34,856 nucleotides of DNA from a virus. A program made the translations under genes and the position numbers. Position 1 is the stretch's first letter; every line of letters begins with the position of its first letter. Location of the stretch: UHGV virus genome UHGV-0299912. The stretch is one strand, 5' to 3'. Below the pieces are notes generated by a model. The model worked only from the letters and a program-made list of their open reading frames with translations, made no database searches and was not told the origin of the DNA. Shown piece by piece: positions 2,908 through 13,034 of the stretch.

Positions 2908-3597
2908 ATGAAAACAACACTCTCAGAAAGACTTAAAGAAGCTAGATTAGCGCGAGGCCTTACACAAAAGGCGCTTGGGGATTTGGTCGGGGTTAGACAG
3001 GCTGCTATTCAGAAAATCGAAACAGGGAAAGCTAATCAAACAACTAAAATCGTGGAGATCGCGAACGCTTTGGGTGTGCGCGCAGAATGGTTATCTTCTG
3101 GCGTTGGAAATATGTCAGACAGTACAGTGCAACCAATACAATCAACTGTCAGCCATTCCAAATACTTCAAGATTGACGTTCTTGATATAGAAGTCAGTGC
3201 TGGGCCGGGAGTCATCAACCGTGAGTTTGTAGAAGTTCTACGCTCGGTTGAGTACTCGTTTGACGATGCTCGTCACATGTTCGATGGTAGGAAGGCGGAA
3301 AATATCCGCATCATTAACGTGCGTGGTGACAGCATGTCAGGAACGATCGAACCAGGTGATCTGCTGTTCGTTGATATCACAGTTAAATCTTTCGACGGTG
3401 ATGGTATCTATGCGTTTCTGTACGACGACACAGCCCATGTAAAGCGCCTGCAAATGATGAAGGATAAGCTGCTGGTCATCTCTGATAACAAAAGCTACTC
3501 ACCGTGGGACCCGATCGAGAAAGACGAGATGAACCGGGTGTTCATCTTCGGTAAGGTTATTGGGAGCATGCCGCAGACATATAGGAAGCATGGGTAG
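2908..3597 (+). CDS. cI: CI-type prophage repressor (N-terminal XRE HTH, C-terminal LexA/S24 autopeptidase domain)
   Basis: ORF-track frame 2842..3597. I prefer the internal ATG at 2908 (MKTTLSERLKEARL...) because 2842 lies inside the operator palindrome. HTH (LTQKALGDLVGVRQAAIQKIE) and S24-like C-terminal region (RGDSM...K) are present. Confidence 0.88.
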   Translation: MKTTLSERLKEARLARGLTQKALGDLVGVRQAAIQKIETGKANQTTKIVEIANALGVRAEWLSSGVGNMSDSTVQPIQSTVSHSKYFKIDVLDIEVSAGPGVINREFVEVLRSVEYSFDDARHMFDGRKAENIRIINVRGDSMSGTIEPGDLLFVDITVKSFDGDGIYAFLYDDTAHVKRLQMMKDKLLVISDNKSYSPWDPIEKDEMNRVFIFGKVIGSMPQTYRKHG

Positions 3598-6463: not shown

Positions 6464-8471
<2,008 letters not shown>

Positions 8472-8554
8472 TTAGCCACATCCCTTTCACAAAAGCTGGA
8501 AATGATGGTGGCGAAAGCAGAAGCAGATGAGAGACCAGGTATGACAACCACTGA

Positions 8555-8836
8555 ATGCATTTTTCTGGCAGCGGGCTTCATATTCTGTGTGCTTATGCTT
8601 GCCGACATGGGGCTTGTTCAGTGACACCTCAGCAAGAAAACGCCCTTCGCAGCATTGCCCGTCAGGCTAATTCTGAAATCAAAAAAGTCAGACAGCAGTT
8701 TCCGGATAAAAACGTCAATGACATTTGCCGTAGCGTACTGAAGAAGCACCGCGAAACGGTAACGCTGAAGGGATTCACACCGACTCATTTAAGCCTGGCA
8801 ATCGGCATGTTAAACGGCGTCTTTAAGGAACGATGA
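8555..8836 (+). CDS. Hypothetical exo-xis-region protein
   Basis: 93-aa ORF. An alternative GTG start at 8621 overlaps the stop of the IS-split gene (VTPQQENALRSIARQ...), which would give ~71 aa. No recognisable similarity. Confidence 0.4.
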   Translation: MHFSGSGLHILCAYACRHGACSVTPQQENALRSIARQANSEIKKVRQQFPDKNVNDICRSVLKKHRETVTLKGFTPTHLSLAIGMLNGVFKER

Positions 8837-8934
8837 ACATGAAAAGCAAAATTATCAGGGAGCTACAGGCTCCTTTTTTATTGTTCGCATTCACCCTCAA
8901 GCGTATTAACCAACAGTTCAGGGATTAATGAAAG

Positions 8935-9156
8935 ATGGCAGACATCATTGATTCAGCATCAGAAATAGAAGAATTACAGCGCAACACAGCAATAAAAATG
9001 CGCCGCCTGAACTACCTGGCTGTATCTGCCACTCATTGTTGTGAGTGTGGCGATCCGATAGATGAACGAAGACGCCTGGCCGTTCAGGGTTGTCGGACTT
9101 GCGCCAGTTGCCAGCAAGATCTGGAGCTTATCCGCAAACAAAGGGGGATTAAGTGA
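8935..9156 (+). CDS. TraR/DksA-family C4 zinc-finger protein (lambda orf73-like)
   Basis: 73 aa with a CxxC-N17-CxxC motif (CCECGD...CRTCASC), typical of TraR-like RNA-polymerase secondary-channel binders found in the lambda exo-xis region. Confidence 0.75.
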   Translation: MADIIDSASEIEELQRNTAIKMRRLNYLAVSATHCCECGDPIDERRRLAVQGCRTCASCQQDLELIRKQRGIK

Positions 9157-9488
9157 TGGCTAACCTGCAACTTGCTGTTAAAAGTGAATACTTCGATGCC
9201 ATGATTCGCGGAGAGAAAACGGAAGAGTATCGCTTGTGTAATGACTACTGGAATAAGCGAATTATGTTCCGGGAATATGACCGCCTGATTATCACAAAGG
9301 GATATCCGAAGCGCGACGATTCCAGTCGCAGAATTGATGTTCCGTATGACGGATATGAAGTGAAGACAATCACACATCCGCACTTTGGCGATAAACCGGT
9401 AAAGGTGTTCGCTATAAAGGTGAATATCACCACTGAATATCAATCCGCACAACACAAGGTCAAGAATGTTCAGAGTGATTTACCCTAA
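9153..9488 (+). CDS. ASCH-domain protein
   Basis: 111 aa. Contains the GxKxxExR motif (IRGEKTEEYR) characteristic of ASCH/PUA-like domains. Overlaps the upstream stop (ATGA). Confidence 0.6.
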   Translation: MMANLQLAVKSEYFDAMIRGEKTEEYRLCNDYWNKRIMFREYDRLIITKGYPKRDDSSRRIDVPYDGYEVKTITHPHFGDKPVKVFAIKVNITTEYQSAQHKVKNVQSDLP

Positions 9489-9705
9489 CACCTGGTACGT
9501 CGACCACCACGGCACTCCCTGCAAAATCCTGCGTTCTACCCACAACAAAGTTCACTACATCCGAAAAGGCAGAACATGTATCGCCAGCATGTTCCGCTTT
9601 AATCATGACTTTGAACCTGTGAGTAAAGTGGAATCAGAGCGGATAGCCGAAGAGATCGATACAGCAGAACACATTAAGAAGTTACGTGCCATACGCAGGA
9701 AATAG
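9466..9705 (+). CDS. Hypothetical protein
   Basis: 79-aa ORF overlapping the previous gene in the same operon; basic C-terminus; no recognisable similarity. Confidence 0.45.
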   Translation: MFRVIYPNTWYVDHHGTPCKILRSTHNKVHYIRKGRTCIASMFRFNHDFEPVSKVESERIAEEIDTAEHIKKLRAIRRK

Positions 9706-9844
9706 AAAAATTGATAAATTCAATACTGCATTTCTCAGCATTAAATTTATCTCTATGACCAGTCAAGAGATGTACCTGCCATGAGCTTAATATCATGTCA
9801 GATATATCGGTCACAAACTCCCTCAGTAGCTAAGAGGAGGACAA

Positions 9845-10081
9845 ATGTCTCGACTAATCACTTTACAGGACTGGGCTAAAGAAGAATTTGGGGACTTAGC
9901 ACCAAGTGAGCGAGTTCTGAAAAAATACGCGCAAGGGAAAATGATGGCCCCACCCGCTATAAAAGTTGGTCGCTACTGGATGATTGACCGAAATTCCCGT
10001 TTTGTAGGAACGCTTGCAGAACCGCAACTCCCAATAAACGCAAACCCAAAACTCCAACGGATAATCGCTGATGGCTGCTAG
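9845..10081 (+). CDS. xis: Excisionase
   Basis: 78-aa ORF immediately upstream of and overlapping int; strong AAGAGGAGG Shine-Dalgarno; sequence recognised as an E. coli prophage excisionase type. Confidence 0.8.
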   Translation: MSRLITLQDWAKEEFGDLAPSERVLKKYAQGKMMAPPAIKVGRYWMIDRNSRFVGTLAEPQLPINANPKLQRIIADGC

Positions 10082-11213
10082 ACCCCGATCTCACAAAATC
10101 TCTATACCCAATTTATATTGCAAATTAGATAAGCGAACCGGAAAGGTATATTGGCAATACAAACATCCACTATCCGGTCGTTTTCATAGCTTAGGAACTG
10201 ATGAGAATGAAGCAAAACAAGTTGCTACTGAAGCAAATACCATTATTGCTGAACAACGTACCCGACAAATATTAAGCGTCAATGAGCGTCTGGAAAGAAT
10301 GAAAGGCAGGCGCTCAGACATTACGGTGACAGAATGGCTTGATAAATATATTTCTATCCAGGAGGACAGGCTGCAACATAATGAACTAAGACCCAACTCC
10401 TATCGGCAAAAAGGCAAACCCATTCGTCTTTTCCGTGAGCATTGTGGAATGCAACACCTCAAGGATATTACCGCACTTGATATTGCCGAAATGATTGATG
10501 CTGTAAAGGCTGAAGGTCATAACAGGATGGCGCAAGTCGTGAGAATGGTGTTAATCGACGTCTTCAAAGAAGCACAACACGCAGGACATGTTCCGCCAGG
10601 ATTTAACCCAGCGCAGGCAACAAAACAACCGCGAAATCGAGTAAACCGCCAAAGATTATCACTGCCCGAATGGCAGGCAATATTTGACAGCGTAAGCAGA
10701 CGGCAGCCCTATTTAAAATGCGGGATGCTACTTGCTCTTGTCACTGGACAACGTTTAGGCGATATCTGCAATTTGAAATTCTCTGATATCTGGGACGACA
10801 TGTTGCACATTACTCAGGAAAAAACCGGTTCAAAACTTGCTATTCCGCTTAACCTGAAATGCGATGCTCTGAATATTACCCTTCGTGAAGTTATATCTCA
10901 GTGCAGGGATGCTGTTGTTAGTAAATATCTGGTCCATTACCGTCACACAACCTCTCAAGCAAACAGAGGAGACCAGGTTTCTGCGAATACTCTGACAACG
11001 GCTTTTAAAAAGGCCAGGGAAAAATGTGGCATAAAATGGGAGCAAGGAACTGCGCCCACATTTCATGAGCAGCGATCTCTGTCAGAACGGTTATATCGGG
11101 AACAGGGTCTGGATACGCAAAAGTTGTTAGGCCATAAATCCAGAAAAATGACCGACCGATACAATGATGATCGTGGTAAAGACTGGATTATCGTAGATAT
11201 CAAAACAGCATAG
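10071..11213 (+). CDS. int: Tyrosine site-specific integrase
   Basis: 380-aa ORF with a tyrosine-recombinase C-terminal catalytic region (R...HxxR...Y context: LGHKSRKMTDRY). Adjacent to xis and the icd 3' fragment. Confidence 0.93.
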   Translation: MAARPRSHKISIPNLYCKLDKRTGKVYWQYKHPLSGRFHSLGTDENEAKQVATEANTIIAEQRTRQILSVNERLERMKGRRSDITVTEWLDKYISIQEDRLQHNELRPNSYRQKGKPIRLFREHCGMQHLKDITALDIAEMIDAVKAEGHNRMAQVVRMVLIDVFKEAQHAGHVPPGFNPAQATKQPRNRVNRQRLSLPEWQAIFDSVSRRQPYLKCGMLLALVTGQRLGDICNLKFSDIWDDMLHITQEKTGSKLAIPLNLKCDALNITLREVISQCRDAVVSKYLVHYRHTTSQANRGDQVSANTLTTAFKKAREKCGIKWEQGTAPTFHEQRSLSERLYREQGLDTQKLLGHKSRKMTDRYNDDRGKDWIIVDIKTA

Positions 11214-11223
11214 AAAACAGCCA

Positions 11224-11260
11224 GTTTTGGGGAAGGGTTTTGGGGAAAGTTTTGGGGAAG
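11224..11260. repeat. Three tandem 12-bp direct repeats GTTTTGGGGAAG / GTTTTGGGGAAA / GTTTTGGGGAAG
   Basis: Copies at 11224..11235, 11237..11248 and 11249..11260, 11 bp after the int stop and between int and the icd fragment. Candidate arm-type Int binding sites. Confidence 0.7.
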
Positions 11261-11280
11261 ATTTTACATCATCATAAAAC

Positions 11281-11303
11281 AACGGGCGTGTTATACGCCC
11301 GTT
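11281..11303. terminator. Bidirectional hairpin terminator between int and the icd fragment
   Basis: Perfect 9-bp stem AACGGGCGT / ACGCCCGTT with loop GTTAT. T-rich 3' flank on the plus strand (TTAAATATTT) and TTTT on the minus strand. Confidence 0.6.
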
Positions 11304-11326
11304 TAAATATTTAACACATGTAGTGA

Positions 11327-11494
11327 TTACATATTCTTGATGATCGCATCACCAAACTCTGAACATTTCAGCAGTTTAGCGCCTTCCATCAGACGTTCGA
11401 AGTCATAGGTTACGGTCTTGGCATTGATTGCGCCTTCCATACCTTTAACAATCAGGTCTGCGGCTTCGGTCCAACCCATGTGGCGCAGCAGCAT
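11327..11494 (-). pseudogene. icd: 3'-terminal fragment of isocitrate dehydrogenase gene icd (phage-borne att homology, e14 type)
   Basis: Minus-strand translation ...[55 protein letters not shown] is the Icd C-terminus as I recall it. Homology stops at ~11494, where the sitC sequence begins; there is no icd 5' region. Confidence 0.85.
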
Positions 11495-11496
11495 AT

Positions 11497-12180
11497 ATGC
11501 TGGGGCTTCCGTTTTCTCTGGGAGCCTTCTTTTCCGGCGGACTGGCTGCGGGCAGCATGCTGTTTCTTAACCAACGCACCCGCTTAAAAGAAGATGCCAT
11601 CATCGGCCTGATCTTCTCGTCCTTTTTTGGCCTGGGGCTGTTTATGGTGTCATTGAACCCGACATCTGTGAACATTCAGACCATCGTCCTGGGCAATATT
11701 CTGGCAATCGATCCGGCGGATATCCTGCAACTCACTATCATTGGCATTCTCTCGATCATCGTGCTTTTTTTCAAATGGAAAGATCTTATGGTGACCTTTT
11801 TCGACGAGAATCACGCCCGTGCTATTGGATTGCATCCGGGCAGATTAAAACTCCTCTTCTTCACCCTGCTGTCGGTTTCGACCGTTGCGGCGCTGCAAAC
11901 GGTTGGTGCCTTTCTGGTGATCTGTCTGGTGGTGACTCCCGGAGCAACAGCATGGTTGTTAACCGATCGTTTTCCCCGCCTGCTCATGATTGCTGTAACT
12001 ATTGGCAGTGTAACCAGTTTCCTCGGCGCGTGGGTCAGTTACTTTCTGGACGGCGCGACAGGTGGAATCATCGTGGTGGCGCAGACACTGCTGTTTCTTT
12101 TAGCATTTGTCTTTGCGCCCACCCATGGGCTTTTGGCAAATCGTCGGCGTGCGCATAAGGCGCTGGAGGATCGCTCATGA
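11497..12180 (+). pseudogene. sitC: 5'-truncated sitC (Mn/Fe ABC transporter permease)
   Basis: 227-aa frame matching the SitC/MntC/YfeC permease family from about residue 60 onward. The N-terminal ~60 codons, sitA and sitB are absent. Overlaps the sitD start (ATGA). Confidence 0.85.
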
Positions 12181-13034
12181 TGGCATTATTACTGGAGCCA
12201 CTGCAGTTCACCTTTATGAGTCACGCACTGCTGATTTCACTGGTAGTTTCCATACCCTGTGCGCTGCTGTCGGTCTTTCTGGTCCTGAAAGGCTGGGCAC
12301 TGATGGGTGACGCGATGAGTCATGCGGTTTTTCCTGGCATCGTGCTTGCCTGGATTCTGGGGTTACCTTTGGCTACAGGGGCATTCGTCGCCGGAGTATT
12401 CTGCGCGGTGGCGACGGGATACCTGAAAGACAACAGCCGAATCAAGCAAGATACAGTGATGGGGATTGTTTTTTCTGGCATGTTTGCCGCAGGTCTGATT
12501 TTGTATATTGCAGTCAAACCAGACGTACATCTTGACCATATTCTTTTCGGCGACATGCTCGGGATAACCATCGGCGATATAATCCAGACGGTGATTATTG
12601 CTGGGCTGGTTACACTTGTTATTAGCGTAAAATGGCGAGATTTTTTGCTGTTCAGCTTTGATTATCAACAGGCGCAGGTAAGCGGTTTGCATACGAGATG
12701 GCTGCATTATGGGCTGCTGTGCATGGTCTCTCTGACCATTGTGGCGACGCTGAAAGCGGTAGGTATTATTCTCTCCATTTCTCTGCTCATTGCGCCTGGC
12801 GCCATTGCGGTACTCCTGACACAACGCTTTTATATTGCGCTCCTACTGGCGACTGGCATATCGGTAATAGTGTCAATGATCGGTGTCTGGCTGTCCTTTT
12901 TTATCGACAGCGCACCAGCTCCGACGATTGTCGTCTTATTCGCGGTCGCGTTCATCATGACGTTTACCGTTACCAGCATCAACGCACGCACAAAGGGAAA
13001 CGCCCATACACAGGATCTGTTATCACCCAATTAG
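12177..13034 (+). CDS. sitD: SitD (Mn/Fe ABC transporter permease)
   Basis: 285-aa polytopic membrane protein of the ABC-3 permease family, immediately downstream of sitC. Confidence 0.88.
   Translation: MMALLLEPLQFTFMSHALLISLVVSIPCALLSVFLVLKGWALMGDAMSHAVFPGIVLAWILGLPLATGAFVAGVFCAVATGYLKDNSRIKQDTVMGIVFSGMFAAGLILYIAVKPDVHLDHILFGDMLGITIGDIIQTVIIAGLVTLVISVKWRDFLLFSFDYQQAQVSGLHTRWLHYGLLCMVSLTIVATLKAVGIILSISLLIAPGAIAVLLTQRFYIALLLATGISVIVSMIGVWLSFFIDSAPAPTIVVLFAVAFIMTFTVTSINARTKGNAHTQDLLSPN

What the first reader, a model, noticed from the sequence alone, without database searches (positions are those of the whole stretch)
8935..9705. Compact three-gene module: TraR-like zinc finger, ASCH-domain protein, unknown 79-aa protein
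The three overlapping ORFs (ATGA and ~20-nt overlaps) form a translationally coupled unit just upstream of xis. TraR-like proteins bind the RNA polymerase secondary channel, and ASCH domains are RNA-binding or RNA-modifying. Together they suggest a host transcription/translation modulation cassette, the kind of exo-xis-region function that is still poorly characterised.
Basis: partly seen in the sequence, partly recalled or inferred. Interest (0 to 1): 0.45.

Follow-up and report, generated by a model that had tools for sequence, protein, structure and literature searches.

The report
Phage 21 early accessory genes, not a cassette
The three small overlapping genes are real and already annotated genes from the early operon of a phage-21-type lambda-like virus: a known RNA-polymerase-binding protein, an ASCH-fold protein and a DUF4222 protein. 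They mix and match independently between phages, so they are not a dedicated three-part system.

Summary

The cassette idea fails. Among 5426 complete E. coli genomes, the three genes occur in 3310, 1487 and 2334 genomes, but the contiguous trio occurs in only 593. The commonest arrangement is TraR-DUF4222 without ASCH. ASCH appears mostly in other contexts and in 332 phage records, against 60 for DUF4222. The ORF2/ORF3 overlap comes from a lost stop codon (TAA to TAT). NCBI's PGAP annotation already gives all three these names. The finding is ordinary and of low interest. One modest lead remains: TraR-DUF4222 adjacency recurs in a diverged Klebsiella-phage lineage.

The parts
8935..9156 (+). 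orf73 allele of a phage-21-type phage: a TraR-family C4 zinc-finger protein, 73 aa
   Evidence: Pfam zf-dskA_traR 36 bits, above the 24.9 cutoff. PHROG 54 E=2.5e-25. TIGR02419 55.1 bits, just under its 59.7 cutoff. PDB TraR and YbiI E=1e-4 to 1e-5. 90% identical to lambda Orf73. DxxDxA = D3, D6, A8. CxxC-17-CxxC = C35, C38, C56, C59, plus the two extra Cys also seen in lambda Orf73. ExxRL at residues 44-48.
9156..9488 (+). Minimal ASCH-fold protein (PHROG 625), 110 aa here; the core is residues 1-94 and residues 95-110 are a read-through tail
9143..9147 (+). GGGGG Shine-Dalgarno for the ASCH gene, lying inside the 3' end of orf73
   Evidence: Read from the sequence; 8 nt upstream of the ATG at 9156.
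9438..9440 (+). TAT codon at the position where the 94-aa forms of the ASCH gene have their TAA stop; its loss creates the 23-nt overlap with the next gene
   Evidence: DNA alignment. ORF lengths in 80 loci: 62 of 94 aa and 18 of 108 or 110 aa; the long forms occur only in the TraR-ASCH-DUF4222 arrangement.
9466..9705 (+). DUF4222 protein (PHROG 285), 79 aa: a predicted SH3/Tudor-like beta-barrel (residues about 10-52) plus a C-terminal helix (54-78)
9845..10081 (+). Context: phage-21-type excisionase gene
10071..11213 (+). Context: phage-21-type tyrosine integrase gene, followed by the icd' fragment at 11327-11494 (-)
8555..8928 (+). Context: upstream genes of the same operon, the orf61-like ORF (8555-8836) and a 31-aa ORF (8833-8928)
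   Evidence: PHROG 303 E=2.3e-39. Both are conserved next to TraR in most related loci.

Best explanation
These are three separate accessory genes of the leftward, N-antiterminated early (pL) operon of a phage-21-type lambdoid phage. They lie in the variable stretch between exo and xis. They were brought together by mosaic recombination and are not parts of one machine.

(1) ORF1 is the phage-21 allele of lambda orf73. By homology to a tested protein, its N-terminal helix (DxxDxA) enters the RNA polymerase secondary channel, its zinc-finger globule sits on the channel rim, and it inhibits rRNA and ribosomal-protein promoters without ppGpp. This diverts host resources and raises phage yield.

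(2) ORF3 (DUF4222) is the usual downstream neighbour of orf73 in this phage type. By inference it is a small Tudor/SH3-like adaptor with a charged C-terminal helix. Like its distant relative RgdR, it would perturb host transcription through weak nucleic-acid or protein contacts.

(3) ORF2 is a minimal ASCH-fold protein inserted between them in a minority of phages. By inference its conserved GxKxxExR pocket binds or hydrolyses a nucleotide or RNA base, as in the N4-acylcytidine-type chemistry of YqfB and EOLA1.

The ORF2/ORF3 overlap arose when the ASCH stop codon was lost.
For: Identity and context: 98.4% DNA identity to phage 21 genes CPT_21_38/37/36 in the pL operon. A prophage copy at icd carries the same PGAP names.

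ORF1: 90% identical to lambda Orf73 with all hallmark motifs. The function of lambda Orf73 has been shown experimentally (PMC9239242).

Independence of the genes:
- E. coli genome counts are 3310 (TraR), 1487 (ASCH), 2334 (DUF4222) and 593 (contiguous trio).
- Of 80 IMG/VR loci anchored on ASCH, 52 have neither TraR within 3 kb nor DUF4222. Many are Ea22...ASCH-Orf55-lambda Xis.
- Of 80 loci anchored on DUF4222, 66 have TraR immediately upstream and only 13 contain ASCH.
- In 13 species-representative genomes of other genera with flanking sequence, ASCH has no DUF4222 neighbour, and only one has a distant TraR-like ORF, downstream.
- ASCH is in 332 phage records, including Salmonella, Ralstonia and Stx phages. 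DUF4222 is in 60.

Stop-codon loss.

ASCH fold and motif.

DUF4222 and RgdR.
Against: No experiment exists on ORF2 or ORF3 of this phage type, so their mechanisms are inferred from fold and distant relatives only.
- ASCH is sub-threshold in Pfam, and sequence profiles find no solved ASCH structure.
- ORF3 lacks the RGD motif that matters in RgdR: it has PNT at that position.
- The SH3-like fold is too common to indicate a partner.
- TraR-DUF4222 adjacency recurs in a diverged Klebsiella-phage lineage (63 of 80 loci). This may mean those two genes are not fully independent.
- In this particular window an IS100-type element (6550-8351) separates the genes from pL, so expression here is uncertain.
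Confidence: 0.75

Rival explanations
1. One reading: a co-adapted, translationally coupled three-gene cassette that jointly modulates host transcription and translation.
For: The genes abut or overlap and are co-oriented in one operon. The exact trio recurs in 593 E. coli genomes and in phages 21, ev207 and PhiR63_2. TraR acts on RNA polymerase, and ASCH domains are linked to RNA and nucleotides (PMC9239242, PMC6803910).
Against: Each gene occurs more often outside the trio. ASCH pairs with Ea22, Orf55 and lambda Xis, and occurs in unrelated phages. The 23-nt overlap is a recent stop-codon loss absent from 62 of 80 ASCH loci. Overlapping junctions are generic in this operon. The recurrence of the trio is at 95-100% identity, which fits spread of one mosaic rather than repeated selection.
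Confidence: 0.07
2. TraR and DUF4222 form a functional pair directed at RNA polymerase. TraR sits in the secondary channel. The Tudor-like DUF4222 barrel docks on the beta lobe, as the UvrD, PcrA, CarD and Mfd Tudor domains do. ASCH is an unrelated passenger inserted between them.
Against: BP-4795-type and RgdR-type DUF4222 genes have no adjacent TraR (0 of 80 each). Adjacency can be inherited synteny of the lambdoid early operon. SH3/Tudor-like hits are generic and include PWWP, KOW, FeoA and ribosomal proteins at the same Z. No interaction data exist.
Confidence: 0.12
3. ORF2, ORF3 or both serve the integration and excision decision, as positional analogues of lambda Ea22, Ea8.5 and Orf55. 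An example would be a cofactor or regulator of the phage-21 Xis/Int module.
For: They occupy the lambda ea22-ea8.5-orf55 position between orf73 and xis. DUF4222 of this type is followed by Xis21/Int21 in essentially all loci that extend far enough, whereas lambda Orf55 goes with lambda Xis. [quoted passage not shown]
Against: Linkage of adjacent genes at about 90% identity is expected without any functional tie. ASCH coexists with Ea22 and Orf55, so it does not replace them. RgdR-type DUF4222 sits next to a primase in a P4-like element.
Confidence: 0.06

Closest known systems
Lambda Orf73 / F-plasmid TraR (TraR/DksA family, PF01258; PDB 5W1S, 6N57)
   Same: 73 aa, with 66/73 residues identical to lambda Orf73. 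It has the DxxDxA tip, CxxC-17-CxxC zinc finger, ExxRL motif and two extra cysteines. It holds the same position in the pL operon after orf61 (PMC9239242, PMC8614690).
   Different: Seven substitutions (H27Y, Q28L, I30V, V49A, E61Q, S67R, S72I), none in a hallmark motif. The downstream neighbour is ASCH instead of ea22.
ASCH superfamily (PF04266; YqfB ac4C amidohydrolase 9KYF, E. faecalis 3IUW, PH0355 2Z0T, ZmASCH 5GUQ, human EOLA1)
   Different: It is much smaller, with a core of about 93 aa. It falls below the Pfam gathering score and has no sequence-level hit to any solved ASCH structure. It carries E24 where YqfB has the catalytic Thr24. It belongs to a separate phage family, PHROG 625, with 1227 representative clusters.
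RgdR (ECs1581) of EHEC O157:H7 prophage Sp7/OI-51, a DUF4222 (PF13973) protein
   Same: Same Pfam domain in both (E=7.5e-19 and 2.1e-23). Both are small, prophage-encoded proteins with a barrel followed by a helix carrying an I-K-K-L/M-like motif.
   Different: Only 29% identity over 45 aa. The RGD motif important in RgdR is PNT here. RgdR is 99 aa and lies beside a primase in a P4-like element, not beside TraR and xis in a lambdoid operon.
Lambda exo-xis region (orf60a, orf63, orf61, orf73, ea22, ea8.5, orf55)
   Same: Same operon, with the same conserved left part (orf60a, orf63, orf61, orf73) and the same role as a mosaic bin of small early accessory genes.
   Different: The orf73-xis interval holds ASCH and DUF4222 instead of ea22, ea8.5 and orf55. 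Other phages combine these genes in further ways.

Membership tests
TraR family (TraR/DksA C4 zinc finger) | Pfam PF01258 match above the gathering score | tested here: met
   36.0 bits against a 24.9 cutoff, E=6.7e-9. NCBIfam TIGR02419 scores 55.1, just under its 59.7 cutoff.
TraR family (TraR/DksA C4 zinc finger) | N-terminal DxxDxA motif that reaches the RNA polymerase active-site region | tested here: met
   M-A-D3-I-I-D6-S-A8. The motif is defined in PMC9239242.
TraR family (TraR/DksA C4 zinc finger) | CxxC-17-CxxC zinc finger and Arg pair (TraR R48/R49) in the globular domain | tested here: met
   C35, C38, C56 and C59 align with the TraR cysteines. R46 and R47 align with R48 and R49.
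TraR family (TraR/DksA C4 zinc finger) | Binds RNA polymerase and inhibits rRNA promoters without ppGpp | not testable with these tools
   Shown for lambda Orf73, which is 90% identical (PMC9239242), not for this allele.
ASCH superfamily | Pfam PF04266 match above the gathering score | tested here: not met
   14.5 bits against a 21.2 cutoff, E=0.06, residues 6-28 only. 22 of 40 close homologues match at best E=0.029. 5 of 60 diverse representatives match at best E=0.001.
ASCH superfamily | GxKxxExR motif in the alpha1-beta2 cavity | tested here: met
   G19, K21, E24 and R26 are invariant or nearly invariant. Predicted helix 10-17 and strand 23-27. The motif is defined in PMC6803910.
ASCH superfamily | PUA-like beta-barrel fold | tested here: met
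YqfB-type N4-acylcytidine amidohydrolases (an ASCH subgroup) | Catalytic Lys21-Thr24-Glu74 triad | tested here: inconclusive
   K21 is present. Position 24 is Glu, not Thr. The Glu74 equivalent was not established. hhalign to YqfB aligns only the motif region, E=0.15. The triad is described in PMC9599836.
DUF4222 / RgdR family | Pfam PF13973 match above the gathering score | tested here: met
   67.5 bits against a 27 cutoff, E=7.5e-19. RgdR itself scores 82 bits.
DUF4222 / RgdR family | RGD motif (residues 20-22 of RgdR), needed for T3SS activation | tested here: not met
   The aligned residues are P7-N8-T9. The role of the motif is from PMC3378721.
   The trio is in 593 genomes, against 3310, 1487 and 2334 for the single genes. 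Alternative arrangements dominate.

The most novel reading that the evidence does not exclude
TraR (Orf73) and DUF4222 are an ancestral two-gene pair that jointly reprograms host RNA polymerase. TraR occupies the secondary channel, and the Tudor-like DUF4222 barrel docks on the beta lobe in the manner of the UvrD, CarD and Mfd Tudor domains. This would also explain how RgdR-family proteins change transcription of many promoters without specific DNA binding. The ASCH gene is an independent cargo inserted between them.
Probability: 0.1. Interest if true: 0.5.

Novelty: new member of a known kind. Interest (0 to 1): 0.18.

Why it matters
As it stands, it matters little. The sequence is essentially phage 21, public annotation already gives the three genes the same names, and the one gene with a known mechanism is a near-identical allele of lambda orf73.

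The useful results are negative or clarifying. The trio is one mosaic combination, not a system. ASCH is an optional insert. The gene overlap is an accident of a lost stop codon. The '79-aa unknown' belongs to the RgdR family.

One modest lead remains. TraR-DUF4222 adjacency recurs in diverged lineages, and DUF4222 has a Tudor-like predicted fold. Together these give a testable hypothesis for how the poorly understood RgdR/DUF4222 regulators of EHEC virulence genes might act.

Tried and rejected
- Sequence searches of ORF2 against solved structures found no ASCH hit. This held for the single sequence, a 40-sequence profile and a 60-sequence diverse profile. Only fold comparison and the motif link it to ASCH.
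- hhalign of the ORF2 family against a single YqfB sequence aligned only the motif region, E=0.15.
- ORF3 has no sequence match in the PDB.
- PADLOC has no defence-system model for any of the three proteins.
- NCBIfam has nothing for ORF2 or ORF3.
- Rfam found nothing credible in 8300-11600, only tpke11 at E=0.71.
- The promoter scan found no more sites than in shuffled sequence.
- The genome-contig scan returned only 14 loci because of its pattern limits. This was enough to show the absence of TraR and DUF4222 neighbours in other genera, but not enough for statistics.
- The idea that the ORFs are spurious was rejected. The antisense 123-aa ORF at 9084-9455 is treated as a shadow, because the family matches and conservation across genera all support the + strand genes.
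- Literature searches on Phi24B exo-xis genes gave no mention of ASCH or DUF4222.

Full report
**Observation.** The window between 8935 and 9705 contains three co-oriented ORFs exactly as described:
- ORF1, 8935-9156, 73 aa.
- ORF2, 9153 (GTG) or 9156 (ATG) to 9488, 111 or 110 aa.
- ORF3, 9466-9705, 79 aa.

The ORF1/ORF2 junction reads AAGTGATGG. With the ATG start used by PGAP and by the phage 21 annotators, the overlap is one base (TGATG), not ATGA. A GGGGG Shine-Dalgarno lies 8 nt upstream of that ATG. ORF2 and ORF3 overlap by 23 nt. xis (9845-10081) follows after 139 nt, and int (10071-11213) overlaps xis by 11 nt. Equally tight junctions occur elsewhere in the operon, for example the ATGA between the orf61-like ORF and a 31-aa ORF at 8833. 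Compactness therefore does not set these three genes apart.

**Where it comes from.** The 8500-10100 stretch is 98.4% identical to Escherichia phage 21 (OL657228) and 99.9% identical to a prophage integrated at icd in E. coli strain 2A. In phage 21 the three genes are CPT_21_38, 37 and 36. They lie in the leftward pL/N-antiterminated operon in this order: exo, orf60a-like, orf63, orf61-like, a 29-aa ORF, the three genes, then xis and int. In strain 2A, PGAP already names them 'TraR/DksA family transcriptional regulator', 'ASCH domain-containing protein' and 'DUF4222 domain-containing protein'. The window has the attP-contiguous phage order: int, an icd' fragment, then sit genes. An IS21-family element (istA/istB, 6550-8351) is inserted in the orf63 homologue.

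**ORF1.**
- It passes Pfam zf-dskA_traR (36 bits against 24.9) and matches PHROG 54 'DksA-like zinc-finger protein' at 2.5e-25.
- It matches F-plasmid TraR and YbiI among solved structures at E=1e-4 to 1e-5.
- The lambda reference record does not annotate orf73, but the ORF is present between ea22 and orf61. ORF1 is 66/73 identical to it.
- The hallmarks defined for TraR and Orf73 are all present (PMC9239242; PMC8614690): DxxDxA (D3, D6, A8), CxxC-17-CxxC (C35, C38, C56, C59), the Arg pair (R46/R47, equivalent to TraR R48/R49), the ExxRL variant, and the two extra cysteines peculiar to lambda Orf73.
- Lambda Orf73 binds RNA polymerase, inhibits rRNA and r-protein promoters, slows host growth and raises burst size about four-fold (PMC9239242).

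ORF1 is therefore an allele of an already characterised protein.

**ORF2.**
- Pfam ASCH is only a sub-threshold hit: 14.5 bits against 21.2, E=0.06, residues 6-28.
- The same holds across homologues. 22 of 40 close ones match, best E=0.029. 5 of 60 diverse representatives match, best E=0.001, and 2 hit the related DUF3850.
- Sequence and profile searches find no solved ASCH structure.
- The region that does match carries the ASCH signature GxKxxExR (PMC6803910) at G19, K21, E24 and R26. These residues are invariant in 40 homologues and nearly invariant in 60 representatives sharing 35-76% identity with ORF2.
- An AlphaFold model (pLDDT 81.9, about 90 in the core) places the motif between helix 10-17 and strand 23-27, as in ASCH domains.
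- Foldseek's best PDB matches are ASCH proteins (3IUW, 1WK2, 5GUS, 2Z0T) at weak E-values of 0.03-0.2.

I conclude that ORF2 is a divergent, minimal ASCH-fold protein (PHROG 625, E=2.1e-51). It belongs to a large family of 1227 clusters at 50% identity. Its biochemical activity is unknown. The closest characterised enzymes, YqfB and EOLA1, deacylate N4-acetylcytidine (for YqfB, PMC9599836; title listing for EOLA1). YqfB uses Thr at position 24, where ORF2 has Glu.

**ORF3.** This is not an orphan.
- It matches Pfam DUF4222 at 67.5 bits, E=7.5e-19, and PHROG 285 at 1.1e-34.
- One DUF4222 protein has been studied: RgdR (ECs1581) of EHEC O157:H7 prophage Sp7/OI-51. It activates LEE1 and type III secretion, represses motility and binds DNA only non-specifically (PMC3378721, PMC10877973).
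- I retrieved RgdR and confirmed its DUF4222 domain, E=2.1e-23.
- It is only 29% identical to ORF3 over 45 residues. The RGD motif important for its activity is PNT in ORF3. RgdR also sits next to a primase in a P4-like element, not in a lambdoid exo-xis region.
- The AlphaFold model of ORF3 (pLDDT 88.6) is a five-stranded small barrel followed by a 25-residue helix.

**Is the trio a unit?** Counts by megablast in 5426 complete E. coli genomes:

| Query | Genomes |
|---|---|
| orf73/TraR gene | 3310 |
| ASCH gene | 1487 |
| DUF4222 gene | 2334 |
| All three contiguous (at least 80% of the 771-nt query in one place) | 593 |

I then looked at gene order in IMG/VR loci, 80 per anchor, chosen as the closest relatives.

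Anchored on DUF4222:
- The dominant order is exo, orf61, 31-aa ORF, TraR, DUF4222, Xis21, Int21, without ASCH.
- TraR is immediately upstream in 66 of 80 loci, and ASCH is present in 13 of 80.

Anchored on ASCH:
- 19 of 80 loci show the TraR-ASCH-DUF4222 order.
- 52 of 80 have neither TraR within 3 kb nor DUF4222.
- Common alternative orders are Ea22-like ... ASCH-Orf55-lambda Xis and TraR-ASCH-Orf55.

Two wider surveys agree. In species-representative genomes of other genera (Enterobacter, Citrobacter, Kluyvera, Brenneria, Dryocola, Polaromonas, Rhizobium and others), the ASCH gene lies among unrelated prophage early genes. None has a DUF4222 neighbour, and only one has a distant TraR-like ORF, which is downstream. 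In GenBank phages, ASCH relatives occur in 332 records, including Salmonella siphoviruses, Stx2 phages and Ralstonia phages. DUF4222 occurs in 60. The three genes therefore assort independently, and the trio is one mosaic combination that has spread.

**The overlap.** Aligning the junctions shows the following. The 94-aa ASCH forms end ...GAA TAA. In the phage-21 lineage that stop is TAT (9438-9440), and translation runs on for 16 codons into the DUF4222 gene. Among the 80 ASCH loci, 62 encode the 94-aa form. The 18 extended forms (108 or 110 aa) occur only in the TraR-ASCH-DUF4222 arrangement, and 4 loci with DUF4222 downstream keep the short form. The left junction coincides with the orf73 stop (GTGATGGC). 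Lambda ea22 also starts there, and so does a 12-codon mini-ORF in the ASCH-less arrangement. The overlap that suggested translational coupling is thus a recent accident at a recombination joint.

**A residual lead.** TraR-DUF4222 adjacency is not confined to the phage-21 type. In a Klebsiella-phage DUF4222 subtype about 45% identical to ORF3, TraR lies immediately upstream in 63 of 80 loci, and the two genes overlap by 1 nt in phage ST13-OXA48phi12.5. In the BP-4795 and RgdR subtypes no locus has an adjacent TraR, 0 of 80 each. This may be inherited synteny. Combined with the Tudor-like fold, it permits the speculative reading that DUF4222 is a second RNA-polymerase-directed factor. I rate this at about 10%.

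**Verdict.**
- The TraR assignment is correct, and the protein is already characterised through lambda Orf73.
- The ASCH assignment is supported by motif and fold, though not at the HMM threshold.
- The '79-aa unknown' is a DUF4222/RgdR-family protein.
- The proposed three-gene cassette is not supported.
- Nothing here lies outside known kinds, and the sequence and its annotation are already public.

Interest is low.

Noticed in passing
window 8857-8885 (+): Terminator-like hairpin (AGGGAGC...GCTCCTT) followed by a T-run, inside the conserved 31-aa ORF (8833-8928) just upstream of the TraR gene. It may be a tL3-like terminator of the pL operon that is read through under N antitermination.
   Followed up: no
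window 6550-8351, with a remnant ORF at 8367-8624: An IS21-family element (istA 340 aa and istB 260 aa; related E. coli records annotate it as IS100-like) is inserted in the orf63/DUF1382 homologue. It separates the distal exo-xis genes, xis and int from pL.
   Followed up: partly
window 8555-8836 versus L003 (lambda) 3013-3325: The orf61-like ORF is 93 aa here. In lambda its N-terminal and C-terminal halves lie in two different frames, the annotated orf61 (61 aa) plus an unannotated 60-aa ORF. Lambda orf61 therefore looks frameshifted relative to the phage-21 form.
   Followed up: no
window 10071-13034: attP-contiguous phage order: int, the 3' icd fragment (11327-11494, - strand), then two ORFs at 11497-12180 (227 aa) and 12177-13034 (285 aa) that I read by eye as Sit-type ABC-transporter permeases; no family search was run on them. 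Phage 21 carries sitABCD cargo next to attP.
   Followed up: partly
Proteins P0162 and P0164 ('ybl17'), P0180 (phage D2 'Ea22'), P0179: Database proteins that are fusions across this region: orf61 N-terminus with DUF4222 C-terminus, Ea22 N-terminus with DUF4222 C-terminus, and Orf73 N-terminus with a frameshifted tail. They are direct traces of deletion and recombination between these small genes.
   Followed up: partly
L165, L166, L180 (BP-4795), and annotations of hits H76 and H85: A DUF551 protein (W-I/M-P-x-S-E-R-M-P-E motif) often sits just upstream of the ASCH gene or of DUF4222 in other phages. It may be a more frequent neighbour of ASCH than TraR is.
   Followed up: no
L167 4313-4612 and L168 4275-4553: In Enterobacter and Citrobacter prophages, ASCH is followed by a 92-99-aa protein with a C-terminal Cys cluster and then by xis-int. 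This is another alternative occupant of the slot just before xis.
   Followed up: no
window 9713-9751 (- strand): A long AT-rich inverted repeat of 16 pairs in the 139-nt gap between the DUF4222 gene and xis, flagged as terminator-like on the minus strand. Its significance is unknown.
   Followed up: no
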